Origin: the human T2T-CHM13v2.0 reference genome, Homo sapiens
Strand: one strand, 5' to 3'
Length of the DNA: 64,000 nucleotides
NCBI RefSeq assembly: GCF_009914755.1
Contig: NC_060933.1
Within the stretch, counting starts at the first letter, position 1; the number at the start of each line of letters is the position of its first letter. The translations under genes were made by a program, and so were the position numbers. Of the stretch, positions 10,337 to 37,188 are shown in pieces. The notes beneath the pieces are model-generated. The model worked only from the letters and a program-made list of their open reading frames with translations, was not told the DNA's origin and did not search any database.

Positions 10337-11369
10337 CTGTTTGGGCCACTTTCTGGAGTTATGTGAGTACTGTGGGTTCAGTTATATTTCCTTGGAACAT
10401 AAAAATAGGAGGTTTTGGTTTGTTACCTTTGAAACCTCAGGGAAATCAAAACCAGAGCTCATTTTGGATGCTGAAGCGATTAATCCATACTGCCCTCTGA
10501 GCTGAAGTAATGATTTGATGCACTGGAATAGTTTCTGCAGCAACGTTCTGTCTCTCTTCTGTTTGTAAGTGATCAGAAACAGCATTTAAAAAAATCCCAC
10601 AGTAGGACACAGAGTATTCTTATATATAATAAGCATACCAATTAATGGGGTTTTCTTTTTTTTGTTTATAACCCAATTCCAGTGGAATCTATTAAAAGCA
10701 AATGTATATAAAATGTGGTTTTAAATTATTAATATTACAGTTTAATTTGTCATATAGTATTAAAACACTTTGGTAACGTTTATGGGAAAAAATAGACTAT
10801 GTTTTGTAAGACAACTTGCCCTTTTAAGACCTCAAATATTCTCATAAAATTAACTTATTTTTTCAGTCAACAGATTTTTTTGAGGACCTACTAAGTCCCA
10901 GATACTCTGTGAGGGGTTGGGTACCAGAAAATAGTAAGACATGATTCCTGCTCTGAAGGAGTTTACAGTGCAATGGGAGGAACAGAGAAATAAACAAGTA
11001 GCTACAAATGCATGTGGTTAGTTCTGTAATGGGGGGAATTGTGGGCTATATGAGCAAACATTGGAGCAACACAGCATCCAATCTTAGTAATTATAGGTTT
11101 CTAGACAAAAGTGACAAAATTAAAGATGAGAGAGTTCACTAAGTGAAGGAATGAGAAATAATATTTTGCCCAAACAGAATAGCATGGGCAAATATCTAAT
11201 ATAAATAGGGTCTTTGACTCAGAGAATGAGAAGTACTTAACTAAGGTTGAGACAAAGAATAAGGGATGGACTTGATTCACAAAAGGAGCAATTGGGCCTT
11301 CAAATTCATATCAATAACTGTTCCCAGTATCCTGAGGATGGAGGGAAGCTCTGGAAGGGTTAATAAAGC

Positions 11370-11482
11370 CAGAGGGACCAACTGTCCTTATTTTTGTGGA
11401 AATTTCACAGTTCTAGCACTGAAAGTTTTGTGTTTAAGGAAACCCCTCTATCCCAGACAAACCAGGGTTGTTGGTCACCTTA
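11370..11482. mobile_element. MER81-like hAT-Blackjack MITE
   Basis: About 113 bp; TIRs agagggaccaactgtcc / gttggtcacctta; internal tagcactgaaagt. Confidence 0.7.
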
Positions 11483-11717
11483 AATGTGCCACGACATAGT
11501 TTGGTTTTAGAAATATTATCATGGCTACAAGATGGAGACTTGATTACAGGGAGTGTGACAGAAAGGAAATCAGTTAGGAGGCTGTTGAAGTGATATGGGA
11601 GAGAAATAACTGTGGCCTGAACTAAAATAATGGTGATGGGGGATGAAGAGAAATGAAGTGATTCAACAAGAGATGCTAAGACAAAGACTAGACAGAGGTC
11701 ATATTAGACTTGTATGG

Positions 11718-12081
11718 TGTATTAGTGTGTTGTCACACTGCTATAAAGAAACTACTTGAGACTGGGCAATTCATAAACAAAAGAGATTTAAGTGACTCAC
11801 AGTTATGCACGACTGGGGAGGTCTCAAGAAATTTACAACCATGGCAGAAGGTGAAGAGGAAGCAAGGCATATCTTATATGGTGGCAGGAGAGAGAGAGAG
11901 TGAAGGAGGAAGTGCTACTTTTAAACCACCAGATCTCTTGAGAACTCACTCAGTATCACAAGAATGGCATGGGGGAAACTGCCCCATGATCCAATTACCT
12001 CCCACCAGGTCCCTCCATCGATACGTAAGGATTACAATTTCAGATGAGATTTGGGTGGAGCCACAGAGCCAAACCATATTA
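11718..12081 (-). mobile_element. THE1D LTR (3' LTR of a MaLR)
   Basis: tgtattag…cacactgctataaagaaactac…cacagagccaaaccatatta matches antisense THE1D. Confidence 0.88.
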
Positions 12082-13210
12082 TTCTGCCCTAGCCCCTCCC
12101 AAATTTCATGTCCTTTTCACATTTCATAACGTATCATGCCTTCCCAACAGTCCCCCAAAGTCTTAACTCATTCCAACATTAACTCAAAAGTCCAAGTACA
12201 AAGTCTCATCTGAGACAAGGCAAGTCCCTTCTGCCTATCAGACTGTAAAATAAAAAACAAGTTAAGTACCTCCAAGATACAATGGGGGTACAGGCATTGG
12301 GTAAATGTTCCCATTCAAAATGGAAGAAATTAGACAAAACAAAGGAGTCACAAGCCCCATGCAAGTCTGAAAGCCAACAAGGCAGTCATTAAATTTTACA
12401 GCTCCAAAATAATCTTCTTTGACTCCATGTCTCACATCTAGGGTGCACTGATGCAAGGATTGGGTTTCCAAGGCCTTGGCAGCTCTGCTCCTGTGGCTCT
12501 GCAGAGTATAGCCCTGTGGCTGTTTTCACAGACTGGCATTGAGTGTCTGAGCCTTTTCCAGGTGCACAGTGCATACTGTTGGTGGATCTACCATTCTGGA
12601 GTCTGGAGGATGGTGACCCTCTTCTCACAGATCCACTAGGTAGTGCCCCAGTGGGGACTGTACTTGGGGACTCCAACCCCACATTTCCCCTCTGCATTGC
12701 CCTAGTATAGGTTCTTCATGATGGCACCGTCCATGCAGCAGACTTCTGCCTGGACATCCAGGAGTTTCCATACTTCCTCTGAAATCTAGGCGGAGGTTCC
12801 CAAACCTCATATCTCATTTTCTGCATATCCACAGGCCCAGTACCATGTGGAAGCTGCCAAGGCTTGGGGCTTACACTCTGAAGAAATGGCCTGAGCTGTA
12901 CATTGGCCTTGTTGGGCCCCTTTTAGCCACAGTCTCTTGAATGCTTTGCTGCTTAGAATTTTTTTCTGCCGGATACCCTAAATCATCTTTCTTGAGTTCA
13001 AAGTTCCACAGATCTCTAGGGCAGGGGCAAAATGCCACCCATCTCTTTGTTAAAGCATAGCGAGAATGACTTTGCTCTAGTTCCTAATAAATGCCTCATC
13101 TCCATCTGAGACTACCTCAGTCTGCCCTTCATTGTCCATATCACTATCATCATTTTGGTCAAAACCATTCAAGTCTCTAGGAAATTCCAAACTTTCCCAC
13201 ATCTTCCTGT
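12082..13210 (-). mobile_element. THE1-int MaLR internal region, truncated near its 5' end, with an internal deletion near 12930
   Basis: caaagtctcatctgagacaaggcaagtccc; ORF track 12389-12697 gives typical THE1 ORF text (GNVGLESP..VPTGALPSG). Confidence 0.9.
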
Positions 13211-14038
13211 TCTCCTGACATTATATTCTGCTGGCCTATAGGTCTTAGTTCCAGCAGGAGGAATGCTGCCACCAGGAGACACAACAATGATTCCATGAAA
13301 CTGGAAGTTTAGATTGCCACCTGGCCACTTTGGGCTCCTCCTACCTCTAAGTCAACTGGCTAAGAAGGTAGTTACAGTGTTGCCTGGGGTAATTGACCCA
13401 GACTATCAGTATGAACTCAGTCTACTACTCCACAATGGATGTAAGGATCAGTATGTGTGGAATACAGGAGATTCCTTAGGGCATCTCTTAGTATTACCAT
13501 GCCCTGTGATTAAGGTCAATGGGAAACTACAACAACACAATCAAAGCAGGACTACAAATGGCCTAGAACCTTCAGGAATGAAAGTTTTGATTAATGCATA
13601 AGGTGAAAAACCATGACCAGTTGAAGTACCTGCTGAAGGCAAAGGGAATACAAAATGGGTAGTAGAAGAAGGTACCAGAGACAACCATGTGACCAGTTGC
13701 AGAAATGAGGACAGTAATTGTCATGAGTATTTCTCCCTTATTTTGTTAAGAATAGGTTTGTGCACGTATACATTTGTACTAAGAAAATACCTTCTTTTAT
13801 TTCCTTTCTTTTTCCTTTATCATGTGACATAAGATTTATTGACTTCATGTTGGCATTTAAGTATTGTTAACTTTATGCATTAATAATAGCACTTAGGTTA
13901 AGCATTAGTGCACTTCCAGTTGTACAAAGGATAGCTGTATTATGTTAGGTGTAATTATGACCTTATTATTATCTTTATTTGGAGGTTAAGTATAATTTCA
14001 GGAGATGTGTATGGGTTGAAGTTGACAAGGGGTGGACT
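13203..14038 (+). mobile_element. HERV-L internal 3' region (end of pol, dUTPase, PPT)
   Basis: ggaggaatgctgccaccaggagacacaacaatg; dUTPase ORF; PPT acaaggggtggac directly before the LTR. Confidence 0.9.
13314..13601 (+). pseudogene. HERV-L dUTPase remnant
   Basis: PPGHFGLLLP…GVIDPDY (dUTPase motif 3)…LLLHNG; no ATG start; upstream part not in an open frame. Confidence 0.85.
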
Positions 14039-14597
14039 TGTGATGGTTAATATTAAGTGTCAACTTGATTGGATTGAAGGATGCAAAGTATTGTTTCTGT
14101 TTGTGTCTGTGAGGGTGTTGCCAGAGGAGATTAGCATTTGAGTCAGTGGACTGGGAGAGGAAGACCCACCCTCAATGTGGGTGGGTACCATCCAAAAGGC
14201 TGCCGGTGCGGCTAGAAAAAGCAGGCAGAAGAAGGTGAAATAAGGTGGCTTGCTGAGTCTTCCAGTTTTCATCTTTCTCCCGTGGTGGATGCTTCCCACC
14301 CTTGAACATCAGACTCCAGGTTCTTCTGCTTTTGGACTCTTGGACTTAAACAAGGGGTTTGCCAGGGACTCTGAGGCCTTCAGCCACAGACTAAAGGCTG
14401 CACTGTTGGCTTCCCTACTTTTGAGGCTTTGGGACTCAGACTGAGCCACTACTGGCTTCCTTGCTCCTCAGCTTGCAGATAGCCTGTTTTGGGACATTGC
14501 CTTGTGGTCATGTGAGTCAATTCTCTTTAATAAACTCCCTTTCATATATACAGGTATCCTATTAGTTCTGTCCTTCTTGAGAACACTGACAAATACA
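14039..14597 (+). mobile_element. MLT2 LTR (MLT2A2/MLT2B3-like), HERV-L 3' LTR
   Basis: tgtgatggttaatattaagtgtcaacttgattggattgaagg…aataaactccc…gaacactgacaaataca. Confidence 0.92.
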
Positions 14598-15125
14598 TAT
14601 GGTGTGGAAAGGAAGAGAGTGGTGTGGGAGAATGACGCATTTAGGATAACTCTTAGATTTATGGCTTAGTTGACTGGGTAAGTAGAAGTGCCAAACGCCA
14701 AGAGAGGAAACTAAAAGAGAAATGAGTTTGGGGAAGAAAATGTTGAAAGAGTTTTGGAAATATTGGTAAGTCCGAGGTGCCTGTGAAATTCTAAGTAGAC
14801 TGATCCTGTAGACAGATAGTTTAGGTGAGAGATTTGGGTGAATGCATAGACTTGAGAGTCTTCTAGATATAGATGGTAACTTGGGAATGGGTGAGGTCAC
14901 CAAGGGAGTATGTGAAAAGATTAAGAGAGGATAGCTAAAGTCTATAATTAGGATTTTGACATTGTCAAAGGAAAGCACAGAGGAAACTTCCAGGAAAAGG
15001 AAAACCAGAAGAGAATAGTGTTATAAAAGCTAAGGAAAGGGGGGTTTTCAGAAAGAGGGAAGTGGCCAACATTATTAAATGATGTAGAAACGTTTAATAA
15101 GATGAGGATAAAAAGTGCCTATTGG

Positions 15126-15182
15126 GTGATCGTACCACTGCACTCCAGTCTGGGCAACAGAGTGAGACCCCATCTCCAAAAA
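15126..15182 (+). mobile_element. Severely 5'-truncated Alu (last ~55 bp, J-like)
   Basis: ccactgcactccagtctgggcaacagagtgagaccc + A tail; TSD aaaaagtgcctattgg / aaaaagtgcgtagtgg. Confidence 0.85.
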
Positions 15183-16175
15183 AAAAAGTGCGTAGTGGAT
15201 CCAGCAACATAGAGCTTATAGATAGCCACATGGATATCAGTTGCAAGGGGCCCCAAAGGTAGAATCAAGTTTACGGTGAATTAGTGACAGGTATTGTAAA
15301 TAAAAGGTAAAAGTAGAGAAAGAAATTGCAGATAGATCTTTCACAAAGTTTGGTTGAGACAGGATGGAGGGATGATGATAGCTAAAAGATGATCAGGGAT
15401 CAGAGAAGATCTTGTTCAAGATGGAAGTGCTCAACCTTCAAATAGGACAAGTGTCTTCATGCTATATCTGAGATAATTCTAGCAGTGTTGTGACTACTGG
15501 ACCCCAGAATTCAGGCACTCCTCAGTGTAGACTGCTATATCCCTGTTTGAGAATGACTGATGTGCCTCCCTGGAGACTTGTGCCAATGGTAACACTTACA
15601 GTAATCATCTCAAACTGGTATAATAACTTCAATAGCCTTTCAACTGGTCTCTCTTTCTCTAATATTTCCAACTTCAAACCCATTTTACACCAGCAGCTTG
15701 TGACCCTTTAAAACCGTAAACTATTGAACAACCACTAAGGAAACTACCCAAAGAGATACTATTAAAATTCTATTAAAAAGTAAGATGGGATTCTCAAAAT
15801 TGTTCGAGTAACACAGGAAGGCAAGAAGAAAGAAGCATGGGAAGACAAATCAGAGACAAATGAAAAGCAACTAGCAAAATGGCAGATGTTAGCTCTACCA
15901 TATAAATAATTACCTTAAATTTAAATAGTCTAAATTCACTAATTATGAGGCAGAGATTGGCAAAGTTGATAACTTTTTTTAAGATTTACTACCAAAAACA
16001 TAATGCATAAAAAGAAAAAATGATAAATTTGACCTCATCAAAATGAAAAACTCTTGTTCTACAAAAGACCCAGAGCAGGAGAAAACATTTATAAACCACA
16101 TATCTAACAAGTAATTTGTATCTGAAATATGTAAAGAAATCTTAATACTCAATAATTATTAAAAAAAAAAAAATC

Positions 16176-36811: not shown

Positions 36812-37188
36812 TGTATTAGTCCATTCTCATGCTGCTATAAAGAACTACCTGAGACTGGTTAATTTATAAAGGAAAGAGGTTTAATTGACTCACAGTTTTG
36901 CAGGGCTCAGGAGGCCTCAGGAAACTTACAATCCTTGTGGGAGGGGAAGCAAACACATCCTTCTTCACATGGTGGCAGGAGAGAGAAGTATAAGAGCAAA
37001 GAGGGAAAAGCCCCTTACAAAACCATCAGATCTTGTGAGAACTCACTCACTGTCACGAGAACAGCAGCATAAGGTAACCATCTCCATGATTCGGTTACCT
37101 CCCACTGGGTCCCTCCCATGATATGTGGAGATTATGGGAACTACAATTCAAGATGAGATTTGTAGGGGGACATAGCCAAACCATATCA
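36812..37188 (-). mobile_element. THE1C solo LTR
   Basis: tgtattagtccattctcatgctgc…gccaaaccatatca; TSD agatc / aggtc. Confidence 0.9.

What the first reader, a model, noticed from the sequence alone, without database searches (positions are those of the whole stretch)
11713..14602. Two-family chimeric provirus: THE1D (-) fused to HERV-L/MLT2 (+) inside one 5-bp TSD
Seen: the left end is TATGG (11713-11717) followed by tgtattag, the U5 end of an antisense THE1D LTR. The right end is …aataca, the U5 end of a sense MLT2 LTR, followed by TATGG (14598-14602). The host L2 continues in register on both sides. The switch from THE1-int to HERV-L occurs at cttcctgt (13203-13210), which by my recollection both consensus sequences carry at those points. 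Established: ERVL and MaLR elements make 5-bp TSDs, and MaLRs lack pol and are thought to borrow ERVL enzymes. Inference: one integration event used a U5 end from each of two different cDNAs (trans/bimolecular concerted integration, inner ends then joined by microhomology), or an inverted inter-template switch between co-packaged genomes. Either would be a molecular fossil of THE1 using HERV-L machinery.
Basis: partly seen in the sequence, partly recalled or inferred. Interest (0 to 1): 0.85.

Follow-up and report, generated by a model that had tools for sequence, protein, structure and literature searches.

The report
Two-family retroelement chimera, one duplication
Two old, broken retrovirus-like remnants of different families lie tail-outwards between one matching pair of five-base host repeats, which is best read as a single shared insertion about 30-50 million years ago, though the key cross-species check could not be run here.

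Summary
The host pentamer TATGG sits at 11713-11717 and 14598-14602. Between the two copies lie two remnants. The left is a minus-strand MaLR remnant of THE1 type, made of a 3' LTR and most of the internal part. The right is a plus-strand ERV-L-type remnant, made of the pol tail with a dUTPase domain, 3' non-coding sequence and a 3' LTR. Natural kin fix both outer ends to the base as LTR termini. The two remnants meet at 13203-13210, an 8-base stretch that kin of both families carry. Five-base duplications are the rule in both families, in 8 of 8 kin checked. Private divergence is alike in the two halves, 0.076 against 0.068. No other copy of the junction turned up in the reference.

Three things were not testable here: whether the host repeat runs on in register, the orthologous sites in other primates, and the subfamily names. 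I favour one integrase-made insertion that used a U5 end from each family (0.6). It is a fossil, old and fragmentary, with no envelope gene seen.

The parts
11713..11717 (.). left copy of the 5-base host duplication (TATGG)
   Evidence: chance of identity about 1/516 to 1/672
11718..13210 (-). MaLR remnant of THE1 type: 3' LTR plus most of the internal part. It lacks the 5' LTR and about 95-116 bases next to it, and has one internal deletion of roughly 380 bases. Its last 8 bases are shared with the right half.
   Evidence: No Pfam family in 7 minus-strand stop-free pieces. Orientation comes from a purine tract abutting the LTR on the minus strand, 16 of 20 bases here and 16-17 of 20 in 5 of 5 kin.
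11718..12081 (-). 3' LTR of the left remnant (364 bases); its outer end is the U5 end
   Evidence: kin LTRs are 341-381 bases
13203..13210 (.). 8-base overlap where kin of both families match (microhomology at the inner joint)
13203..14597 (+). ERV-L-type remnant: tail of pol (dUTPase domain), 3' non-coding stretch and 3' LTR. Everything upstream is missing.
   Evidence: Pfam dUTPase PF00692, E 3.9e-9. 13 kin rows at 80-84% identity. Kin continue upstream with an integrase core domain.
14039..14597 (+). 3' LTR of the right remnant (559 bases); its outer end is the U5 end
   Evidence: aligns end to end with both LTRs of 3 kin (536-550 bases). 11 of the 15 bases before it are purines.
14598..14602 (.). 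right copy of the 5-base host duplication (TATGG)
10800..11712 (.). left neighbour: old purine-rich host repeat (approximate outer bound).
   Evidence: positive GC skew; no Pfam family above cut-off; no paralogue reaching the site
11363..11492 (-). short repeat nested in the left neighbour (about 125 bases, 19 paralogous places)
   Evidence: weak Rfam match to mir-584, 28.1 bits against a gathering score of 80, E 0.014
14603..15124 (.). right neighbour: the same kind of purine-rich host repeat, followed by an Alu-like fragment

Best explanation
One integrase-made insertion placed a composite DNA into a single host site. That DNA carried two U5 (3'-LTR) ends. One end came from a cDNA of a non-autonomous MaLR of THE1 type and the other from a cDNA of an ERV-L-type element.

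Shown:
- Both outer ends are exact LTR termini.
- Both are U5 ends of 3' LTRs.
- They are flanked by the same 5 host bases.
- 5 bases is the duplication length in both families.
- The inner ends meet at an 8-base stretch that both families carry.

Inferred:
- The two ends were held by one integrase complex.
- The inner joint arose in one of two ways. It may have formed before integration, when one nascent minus-strand DNA annealed by the 8 bases to the other family's minus-strand DNA inside one particle and was extended to its end. Or it may have formed after a two-molecule concerted integration, when the cell joined the two free inner ends by microhomology.

Either way the MaLR cDNA was processed by the same machinery, at the same time and place, as an ERV-L cDNA. 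The age is roughly 30-50 million years. Today the locus is an inert fragment.
For: - Exact termini.
- Identical 5-mers, with chance 1/516 to 1/672.
- 5-base duplications in 5 of 5 left-family kin (1 perfect, 4 with 4/5) and in 3 of 3 right-family kin that have both LTRs (1 perfect, 2 with 4/5).
- Both outer ends are U5 ends. On the right, the dUTPase domain reads on the plus strand upstream of the LTR. On the left, a purine tract abuts the LTR on the minus strand, while only 5-7 of 20 bases are purines at the position the other orientation would require.
- 8-base overlap at the joint. By my arithmetic, an overlap this long at a blind joint has a chance of roughly 1e-4.
- Our copy is as far from kin as kin are from one another in all 5 segments.
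- Private differences with ours plus 5 kin: left half 67/882 = 0.076; right half mean 61.3/904.6 = 0.068, range 0.060-0.076 over 126 subsets.
- No second copy of the joint among the 81 match rows, so it is not a propagated recombinant family or a duplicated segment.
- Feasibility: integrases join two separate donor ends in concert in vitro and give the family-typical duplication (passages of PMC2857682 and PMC3790719).
- MaLRs lack pol and are held to be non-autonomous relatives of ERV-L (passages of PMC3769647 and PMC6466679).
Against: - Continuity of the host sequence across the site is untested. The second genome search only hit a nested short repeat.
- No orthologous empty or filled site could be examined.
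- LTR-pair distances of the fetched kin differ between the families. Left-family kin give 0.166-0.178 (4) and 0.257 (1). Right-family kin give 0.081, 0.084 and 0.149. Their insertion times therefore overlap only marginally, and a real age gap between the halves is not excluded.
- Private-difference rates track LTR-pair ages poorly among the right-family kin, so the equal-age result has low power.
- The finding was picked because its 5-mers match. Across a whole-genome scan, a 1-in-600 coincidence among abutting truncated LTR elements is not negligible.
- It is a single locus.
Confidence: 0.6

Rival explanations
1. Two unrelated insertions landed close together in tail-out orientation. A later deletion removed their inner parts and the host DNA between them. 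The two TATGG are different host sequences that match by chance.
For: Deletions with short microhomology are common in old DNA, and the 8-base overlap fits such a deletion as well. LTR-pair ages of kin differ between the two families. The locus was selected because the 5-mers match. Host continuity is untested.
Against: It needs a 1/516 to 1/672 coincidence on top of a deletion that starts inside one element and ends inside the other. The private divergence of the halves is alike. By my recollection of the host repeat family, which is a lead and not a test, the two flanks read as adjacent parts with little or nothing missing.
Confidence: 0.12
2. Sequential insertion into the very same 5 bases. 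One element integrated first. The other later integrated into one copy of its duplication, giving three TATGG copies. A deletion then removed both inner parts and the middle copy.
For: It gives exactly the present anatomy, with exact termini, one pair of 5-mers and a continuous host. It would allow different ages for the halves, as the kin LTR pairs hint.
Against: It needs integration into the same 5 bases followed by a suitably placed deletion. By my rough estimate from copy numbers, which is recalled and not a call, far fewer than one such case is expected genome-wide. The halves show no age difference.
Confidence: 0.1
3. One-ended integration. Integrase inserted only one of the two ends. 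Host repair joined the other side and captured a stray cDNA of the other family. The 5-base match is incidental.
For: Aberrant proviruses with one normal end, and a second end joined by host enzymes to viral DNA in either orientation, are described for other retroviruses (passages of PMC5041404). Mouse MERV-L/MaLR insertions that are partial, rearranged and tied to deletions are on record (passages of PMC6466679).
Against: In those cases the host-made end is usually truncated and the duplication is not the family-typical short one (PMC5041404 passages). Here both outer ends are exact LTR termini and the repeat is exactly 5 bases.
Confidence: 0.05

Closest known systems
Concerted integration of two separate donor DNA ends by retroviral integrase in vitro (passages of PMC2857682 and PMC3790719)
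   Same: Two DNA ends that are not parts of one molecule are joined in concert to staggered positions of one target. This gives the duplication length typical of the enzyme.
   Different: That is a test-tube reaction with identical short donors. Here it would be a germ-line event with cDNAs of two different families, plus a repaired inner joint.
Aberrant proviruses with one integrase-made end and one host-made end (passages of PMC5041404)
   Same: Truncated viral DNA, viral DNA joined to further viral DNA in either orientation, and host repair taking part.
   Different: Those show long duplications, deletions or inversions of host DNA and a damaged viral end. Here both ends are exact and the repeat is 5 bases.
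Mosaic human endogenous retroviruses: recombinants and secondary ('piggy-back') integrations, including antisense MaLR pieces in other proviruses (passages of PMC4724089; HARLEQUIN-type recombinants in PMC5753468)
   Same: Sequence of two retroelement families within one stretch. MaLR pieces are often antisense and near the 3' end.
   Different: Recombinants keep one orientation and often propagate. Secondary integrations carry their own duplication inside the host element. Here the halves are tail-out, both truncated inwards, share one duplication, and the joint is unique in the genome.
Partial, rearranged MERV-L and MaLR insertions in mouse mutants (passages of PMC6466679)
   Same: The same two related families. 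The insertions are partial elements with rearrangement.
   Different: Those come with host deletions and have no shared short duplication. No two-family tail-out structure is described there.
5'-inverted LINE-1 insertions ('twin priming'; recalled, no call)
   Same: One insertion event yields two oppositely oriented pieces joined at microhomology within one duplication.
   Different: That involves a different enzyme and mechanism (target-primed), with one template rather than two families.

Membership tests
MaLR, THE1 type (left half) | LTR-internal-LTR element of about 2.3 kb with LTRs of about 350 bases (sizes recalled; family listing in PMC5753468 passages) | tested here: met
   The 5 fetched kin are 2287-2393 bases long with LTRs of 341-381 bases. 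Our LTR is 364 bases.
MaLR, THE1 type (left half) | No pol (no reverse transcriptase or integrase), hence non-autonomous (PMC3769647 passages) | tested here: met
   0 Pfam families in 7 minus-strand stop-free pieces at E up to 1. Shorter pieces were not scanned.
MaLR, THE1 type (left half) | 5-base target-site duplication | tested here: met
   5 of 5 kin: 1 perfect, 4 with 4 of 5.
MaLR, THE1 type (left half) | Subfamily D as opposed to A-C or MST, by diagnostic positions of a public model; simian-only distribution (PMC10735291 passages) | not testable with these tools
   No named repeat library and no other primate genome were on hand. Best kin identity of 78-83% fits an older member only by recall.
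ERV-L (HERV-L with MLT2-type LTR; right half) | dUTPase domain at the C-terminal end of pol, after integrase (passages of PMC1224870, PMC4724089, PMC5753468) | tested here: met
   In our copy, PF00692 scores 36.8 bits against a cut-off of 22. In kin, an integrase core (PF00665) above cut-off lies in 3 of 5 kin within 500 bases upstream. dUTPase scores above cut-off in 1 kin and below it in 1 more.
ERV-L (HERV-L with MLT2-type LTR; right half) | No envelope gene between pol and the 3' LTR (PMC6466679 and PMC4724089 passages) | tested here: inconclusive
   Only a few hundred bases lie between the domain and the LTR. The one stop-free piece scanned there had no Pfam family. Absence of a match is weak evidence.
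ERV-L (HERV-L with MLT2-type LTR; right half) | 5-base target-site duplication | tested here: met
   3 of 3 kin with both LTRs: 1 perfect, 2 with 4 of 5. 2 of the 5 upstream stretches fetched held no 5' LTR.
ERV-L (HERV-L with MLT2-type LTR; right half) | Primer-binding site for a leucine tRNA; MLT2 subfamily of the LTR | not tested
   Our copy lacks that end. There was no tRNA comparator and no named LTR library on hand.
Single concerted integration (one duplication for the whole insert) | Exact LTR termini at both outer ends, flanked by identical host bases of the family-typical length | tested here: met
Single concerted integration (one duplication for the whole insert) | Host sequence continuous across the site; orthologues either empty with one copy of the 5-mer or holding the whole insert | not testable with these tools
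   The genome search with the left flank hit only a nested short repeat in 19 places. No paralogue reaches the site.
Single concerted integration (one duplication for the whole insert) | Both halves of the same age | tested here: inconclusive
   Private differences are 0.076 and 0.068, and our-to-kin distance equals kin-to-kin distance. However, kin LTR-pair distances are 0.166-0.257 in the left family and 0.081-0.149 in the right.
L2 (host repeat around the insert) | Similarity of both flanks to adjacent parts of an L2 model | not testable with these tools
No Pfam family above cut-off in 10 flank pieces. No Rfam family except the nested repeat. No paralogue was found.

The most novel reading that the evidence does not exclude
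The locus is a physical fossil of one integrase complex holding the U5 end of a THE1-type MaLR cDNA together with the U5 end of an ERV-L cDNA. Either the two were already fused tail-out by a strand switch inside one particle, or they were two separate molecules. That would be direct structural evidence that primate MaLRs were mobilised by ERV-L machinery. It would also show that two-template integration happens in a germ line.
Probability: 0.55. Interest if true: 0.75.

Novelty: new variant of a known kind. Interest (0 to 1): 0.6.

Why it matters
MaLRs are among the most numerous retroelements in the human genome, yet they encode no enzymes. The papers I read infer their dependence on ERV-L from relatedness (PMC6466679 and PMC3769647 passages), not from a caught-in-the-act event. 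A single insertion built from one end of each family would tie the two together in one reaction.

It would also be a natural counterpart to two-donor concerted integration, which the passages I read (PMC2857682, PMC3790719) describe only in vitro. If a census finds more such pairs than chance predicts, they could be used to map which non-autonomous families used which helpers, and when. If the cross-species check fails, the locus is simply two neighbours trimmed by a deletion.

Tried and rejected
Host register. I searched the reference with the left flank. It returned 19 places, all matching only a nested repeat core of about 125 bases, roughly 230 bases from the site. Relaxed BLAST and single-sequence nhmmer of both flanks found nothing that reaches the site. 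Those runs covered these loci, the whole window and all other loci. Pfam on 10 flank pieces gave nothing above cut-off. Rfam gave only a weak mir-584 match on the nested repeat.

A propagated recombinant family or a duplicated segment is rejected. Apart from the window itself, none of the 81 match rows crosses the joint. Only 40 of 24241 first-look candidates were scored, but a second copy would have ranked at the top.

The idea that right-half kin also begin at the joint, which would make it a natural element end, is rejected. Kin resemble one another upstream of it in 9 of 9 cases, over 56-506 bases.

Primer-binding-site check for the left family. The expected trinucleotide is not within 5 bases of the LTR in 0 of 5 kin. 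A candidate lies a few bases further in, but PMC3769647 states that MaLRs lack such a site. I rest the orientation on the purine tract alone.

Dating by LTR pairs is impossible for our copy, since each half has one LTR. I used kin distances and private differences instead. They have low power.

Literature. Searches listed no report of a tail-out two-family pair inside one duplication. The library lacks most subscription journals and supplements were closed, so this is not proof of absence. PMC104094 was not held.

For PMC5753468, PMC6466679, PMC5041404, PMC1224870, PMC4724089, PMC3790719, PMC2857682, PMC10735291 and PMC3769647 I saw passages only. For PMC4531489 I saw one reference-list passage. 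For PMC10204343 I saw only the start of the abstract in a search listing. The substitution rate of 2.2e-9 per site per year, the THE1 sizes and the L1 comparison are recalled.
Full report
What is there. The window shows TATGG at 11713-11717 and again at 14598-14602. The 2880 bases between them (11718-14597) fall into two parts. A search of the reference genome with 11618-14697 gave 81 match rows. The window itself is the only row that covers the whole query.
- Thirteen rows match only the right part, window 13203 to about 14597, at 80-84% identity.
- About 26 places match the left part at 78-83%. They match window 11718 to about 12908, and most match again from about 12935 to 13210-13218.

The left half. 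I fetched five left-family kin. They are complete elements of 2287-2393 bases with LTRs of 341-381 bases.
- Our LTR is 11718-12081. A diverged LTR elsewhere in the window also starts its match exactly at 11718.
- Four of the five kin alignments start at 11718 and one at 11717.
- Against all five kin, our copy lacks the far LTR and the 95-116 internal bases next to it. It also has one internal deletion of roughly 380 bases.
- Seven stop-free minus-strand pieces hit no Pfam family.
- All five kin carry 5-base duplications, 1 perfect and 4 with 4 of 5.
- A purine tract abuts the LTR on the minus strand, 16 of 20 bases in ours and 16-17 of 20 in the kin. The position that the opposite orientation would require has only 5-7 purines of 20.

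So the element is on the minus strand, the LTR is its 3' LTR, and base 11718 is its U5 end. Size, lack of coding capacity and duplication length fit a MaLR of THE1 type (family listing and properties: passages of PMC5753468 and PMC3769647; sizes recalled). The letter D of the subfamily could not be tested.

The right half. A stop-free plus-strand piece matches the Pfam dUTPase domain (E 3.9e-9, 36.8 bits against a cut-off of 22).
- Nine kin saved all begin their match at window 13203. Five of them end it at 14597 and four at 14569, 14590, 14598 or 14603.
- Upstream of that point the kin go on resembling one another, 9 of 9 over 56-506 bases. Their downstream flanks are unrelated. Our copy is therefore cut off at 13203, and 14597 is a true element end.
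- In the kin, an integrase core domain lies within the 500 bases upstream. It is above the Pfam cut-off in 3 of 5 kin and below it in 1 more.
- dUTPase placed after integrase is the mark of the ERV-L lineage (passages of PMC1224870, PMC4724089, PMC5753468).
- Three of five upstream stretches fetched held a 5' LTR. Both LTRs of those three kin align end to end with 14039-14597. The kin show 5-base duplications, 1 perfect and 2 with 4 of 5.
- The pol remnant is truncated at its upstream side and carries 2 in-frame stops. It shows no frameshift against the 2 kin that align without gaps.
- No envelope gene was seen.

The joint. Right-family similarity starts at 13203 in 9 of 9 kin, with 5-11 chance matches in the 30 bases before it. 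Left-family similarity ends at 13210 (2 kin), 13216 (2) or 13218 (1), with 5-8 chance matches in the 30 bases after. Within 13203-13210, right-family kin match 8/8 (5 kin) or 7/8 (4 kin), and left-family kin match 8/8 (2 kin) or 7/8 (3 kin).

Is the 5-base repeat meaningful? Identical 5-mers turn up once in 669 from window composition, once in 672 at this spacing, and once in 516 between the two flanks. Both families make 5-base duplications, in 8 of 8 kin. The match is therefore significant for a single pre-stated test. It is less so if the locus was picked from a genome-wide scan because of that match.

Age. Distances are Kimura two-parameter without CpG sites. LTR pairs give:

| Kin | LTR-pair distance | Age at 2.2e-9 per site per year (recalled rate) |
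|---|---|---|
| Left-family kin | 0.166-0.178 (4 kin), 0.257 (1 kin) | about 38-40 and 58 million years |
| Right-family kin | 0.081, 0.084, 0.149 | about 18, 19 and 34 million years |

- Our copy is exactly as far from kin as kin are from one another in all five segments.
- The distance from our LTRs to the insertion nodes of kin is an upper bound on our own age. It is 0.105-0.131 for the right half. For the left half it is 0.121-0.164, by my arithmetic from the values. That means at most about 48-55 million years.
- Private differences, counted like for like with ours plus five kin, are 67/882 = 0.076 for the left half. For the right half the mean is 61.3/904.6 = 0.068, range 0.060-0.076 over 126 subsets. 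These correspond to about 31-35 million years if all are post-insertion.
- The halves cannot be told apart in age, but the test is weak. Among right-family kin, the private rate tracks the LTR-pair age poorly.
- THE1-type families are simian-only, and MaLR activity is placed up to about 45 million years ago (passages of PMC10735291).

I put the insertion at roughly 30-50 million years. It is old, fragmentary and without an envelope gene.

How it most likely arose. Two exact U5 ends of 3' LTRs face outwards. One family-typical duplication flanks them. A microhomology joint lies inside. This is what one concerted integrase reaction on two U5 ends would leave. In standard reverse transcription (textbook knowledge), the right-hand LTR is the first part of a retroviral cDNA to be completed. 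Incomplete cDNAs would therefore offer just this end.

The inner joint may have formed before integration. In that case the 3' end of the MaLR minus-strand DNA, about a hundred bases short of its template's end, paired by the 8 bases with ERV-L minus-strand DNA and was extended to its end. Or it may have formed after a two-molecule integration, through joining of the free ends by the cell. The sequence cannot tell these two apart.

Integrases do join two separate donor ends in concert in vitro with the proper duplication (passages of PMC2857682 and PMC3790719). Host repair does finish aberrant integrations in cells (passages of PMC5041404).

Rivals. Three two-step or partial histories remain possible:
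- Two nearby insertions trimmed by a deletion, with a chance 5-mer match.
- Re-integration into the very same 5 bases, followed by a deletion.
- A one-ended integration that captured a second cDNA.

The first predicts missing host sequence between the flanks. I could not test that. The second genome search only found a nested short repeat, and nothing in hand spans the site. By recollection only, the flanks read as adjacent parts of one old LINE. That is a lead, not a result. The partial mismatch of kin LTR-pair ages between the two families counts against a single event and is reported as such.

Verdict. The single-event reading is the best supported (0.6) but not proven. The family assignments hold at the level of THE1-type MaLR and ERV-L type, and the subfamily names and the L2 label remain unverified. 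No report of such a pair turned up in eight literature searches of a library that lacks most subscription journals. I rate it a new variant of known kinds (aberrant integration, mosaic proviruses).

Noticed in passing
window 11363-11492 (minus strand): A short repeat of about 125 bases is nested in the left flank. It has 19 paralogous places in the reference and a weak Rfam match to mir-584 (28.1 bits, gathering score 80, E 0.014). By recall that microRNA family derives from a short DNA transposon.
   Followed up: partly
G000 C4:160749039-160751157; C1:238451214-238452980; C5:92547811-92551154 (rows; the last is next to L010): Three of 13 right-family kin have MaLR-type matches beside or abutting them. 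One abuts the kin's LTR end. They look like ordinary nested or neighbouring insertions, and if so they bear on the relative timing of the two families.
   Followed up: no
window 15125-15188: A 60-base Alu-like fragment in the right flank matches 8 other places in the window at 82-88% identity.
   Followed up: no
L002/L026 and L008/L027 (right-family kin): Two kin have LTR pairs only 0.081-0.084 apart, about half the distance seen in the left-family kin. Either this ERV-L-type lineage stayed active later than the THE1-type kin, or the LTRs were homogenised.
   Followed up: partly
window 11713-11720 and 14598-14605: The identity of the two sides runs to 8 bases. The first three bases of the left LTR happen to equal the three host bases after the right-hand duplication. 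Kin place the LTR end at 11718, so I take this as coincidence.
   Followed up: partly
window 36812-37186: A diverged MaLR-type LTR (72% identical to 11718-12079) lies elsewhere in the window, in the same orientation.
   Followed up: no
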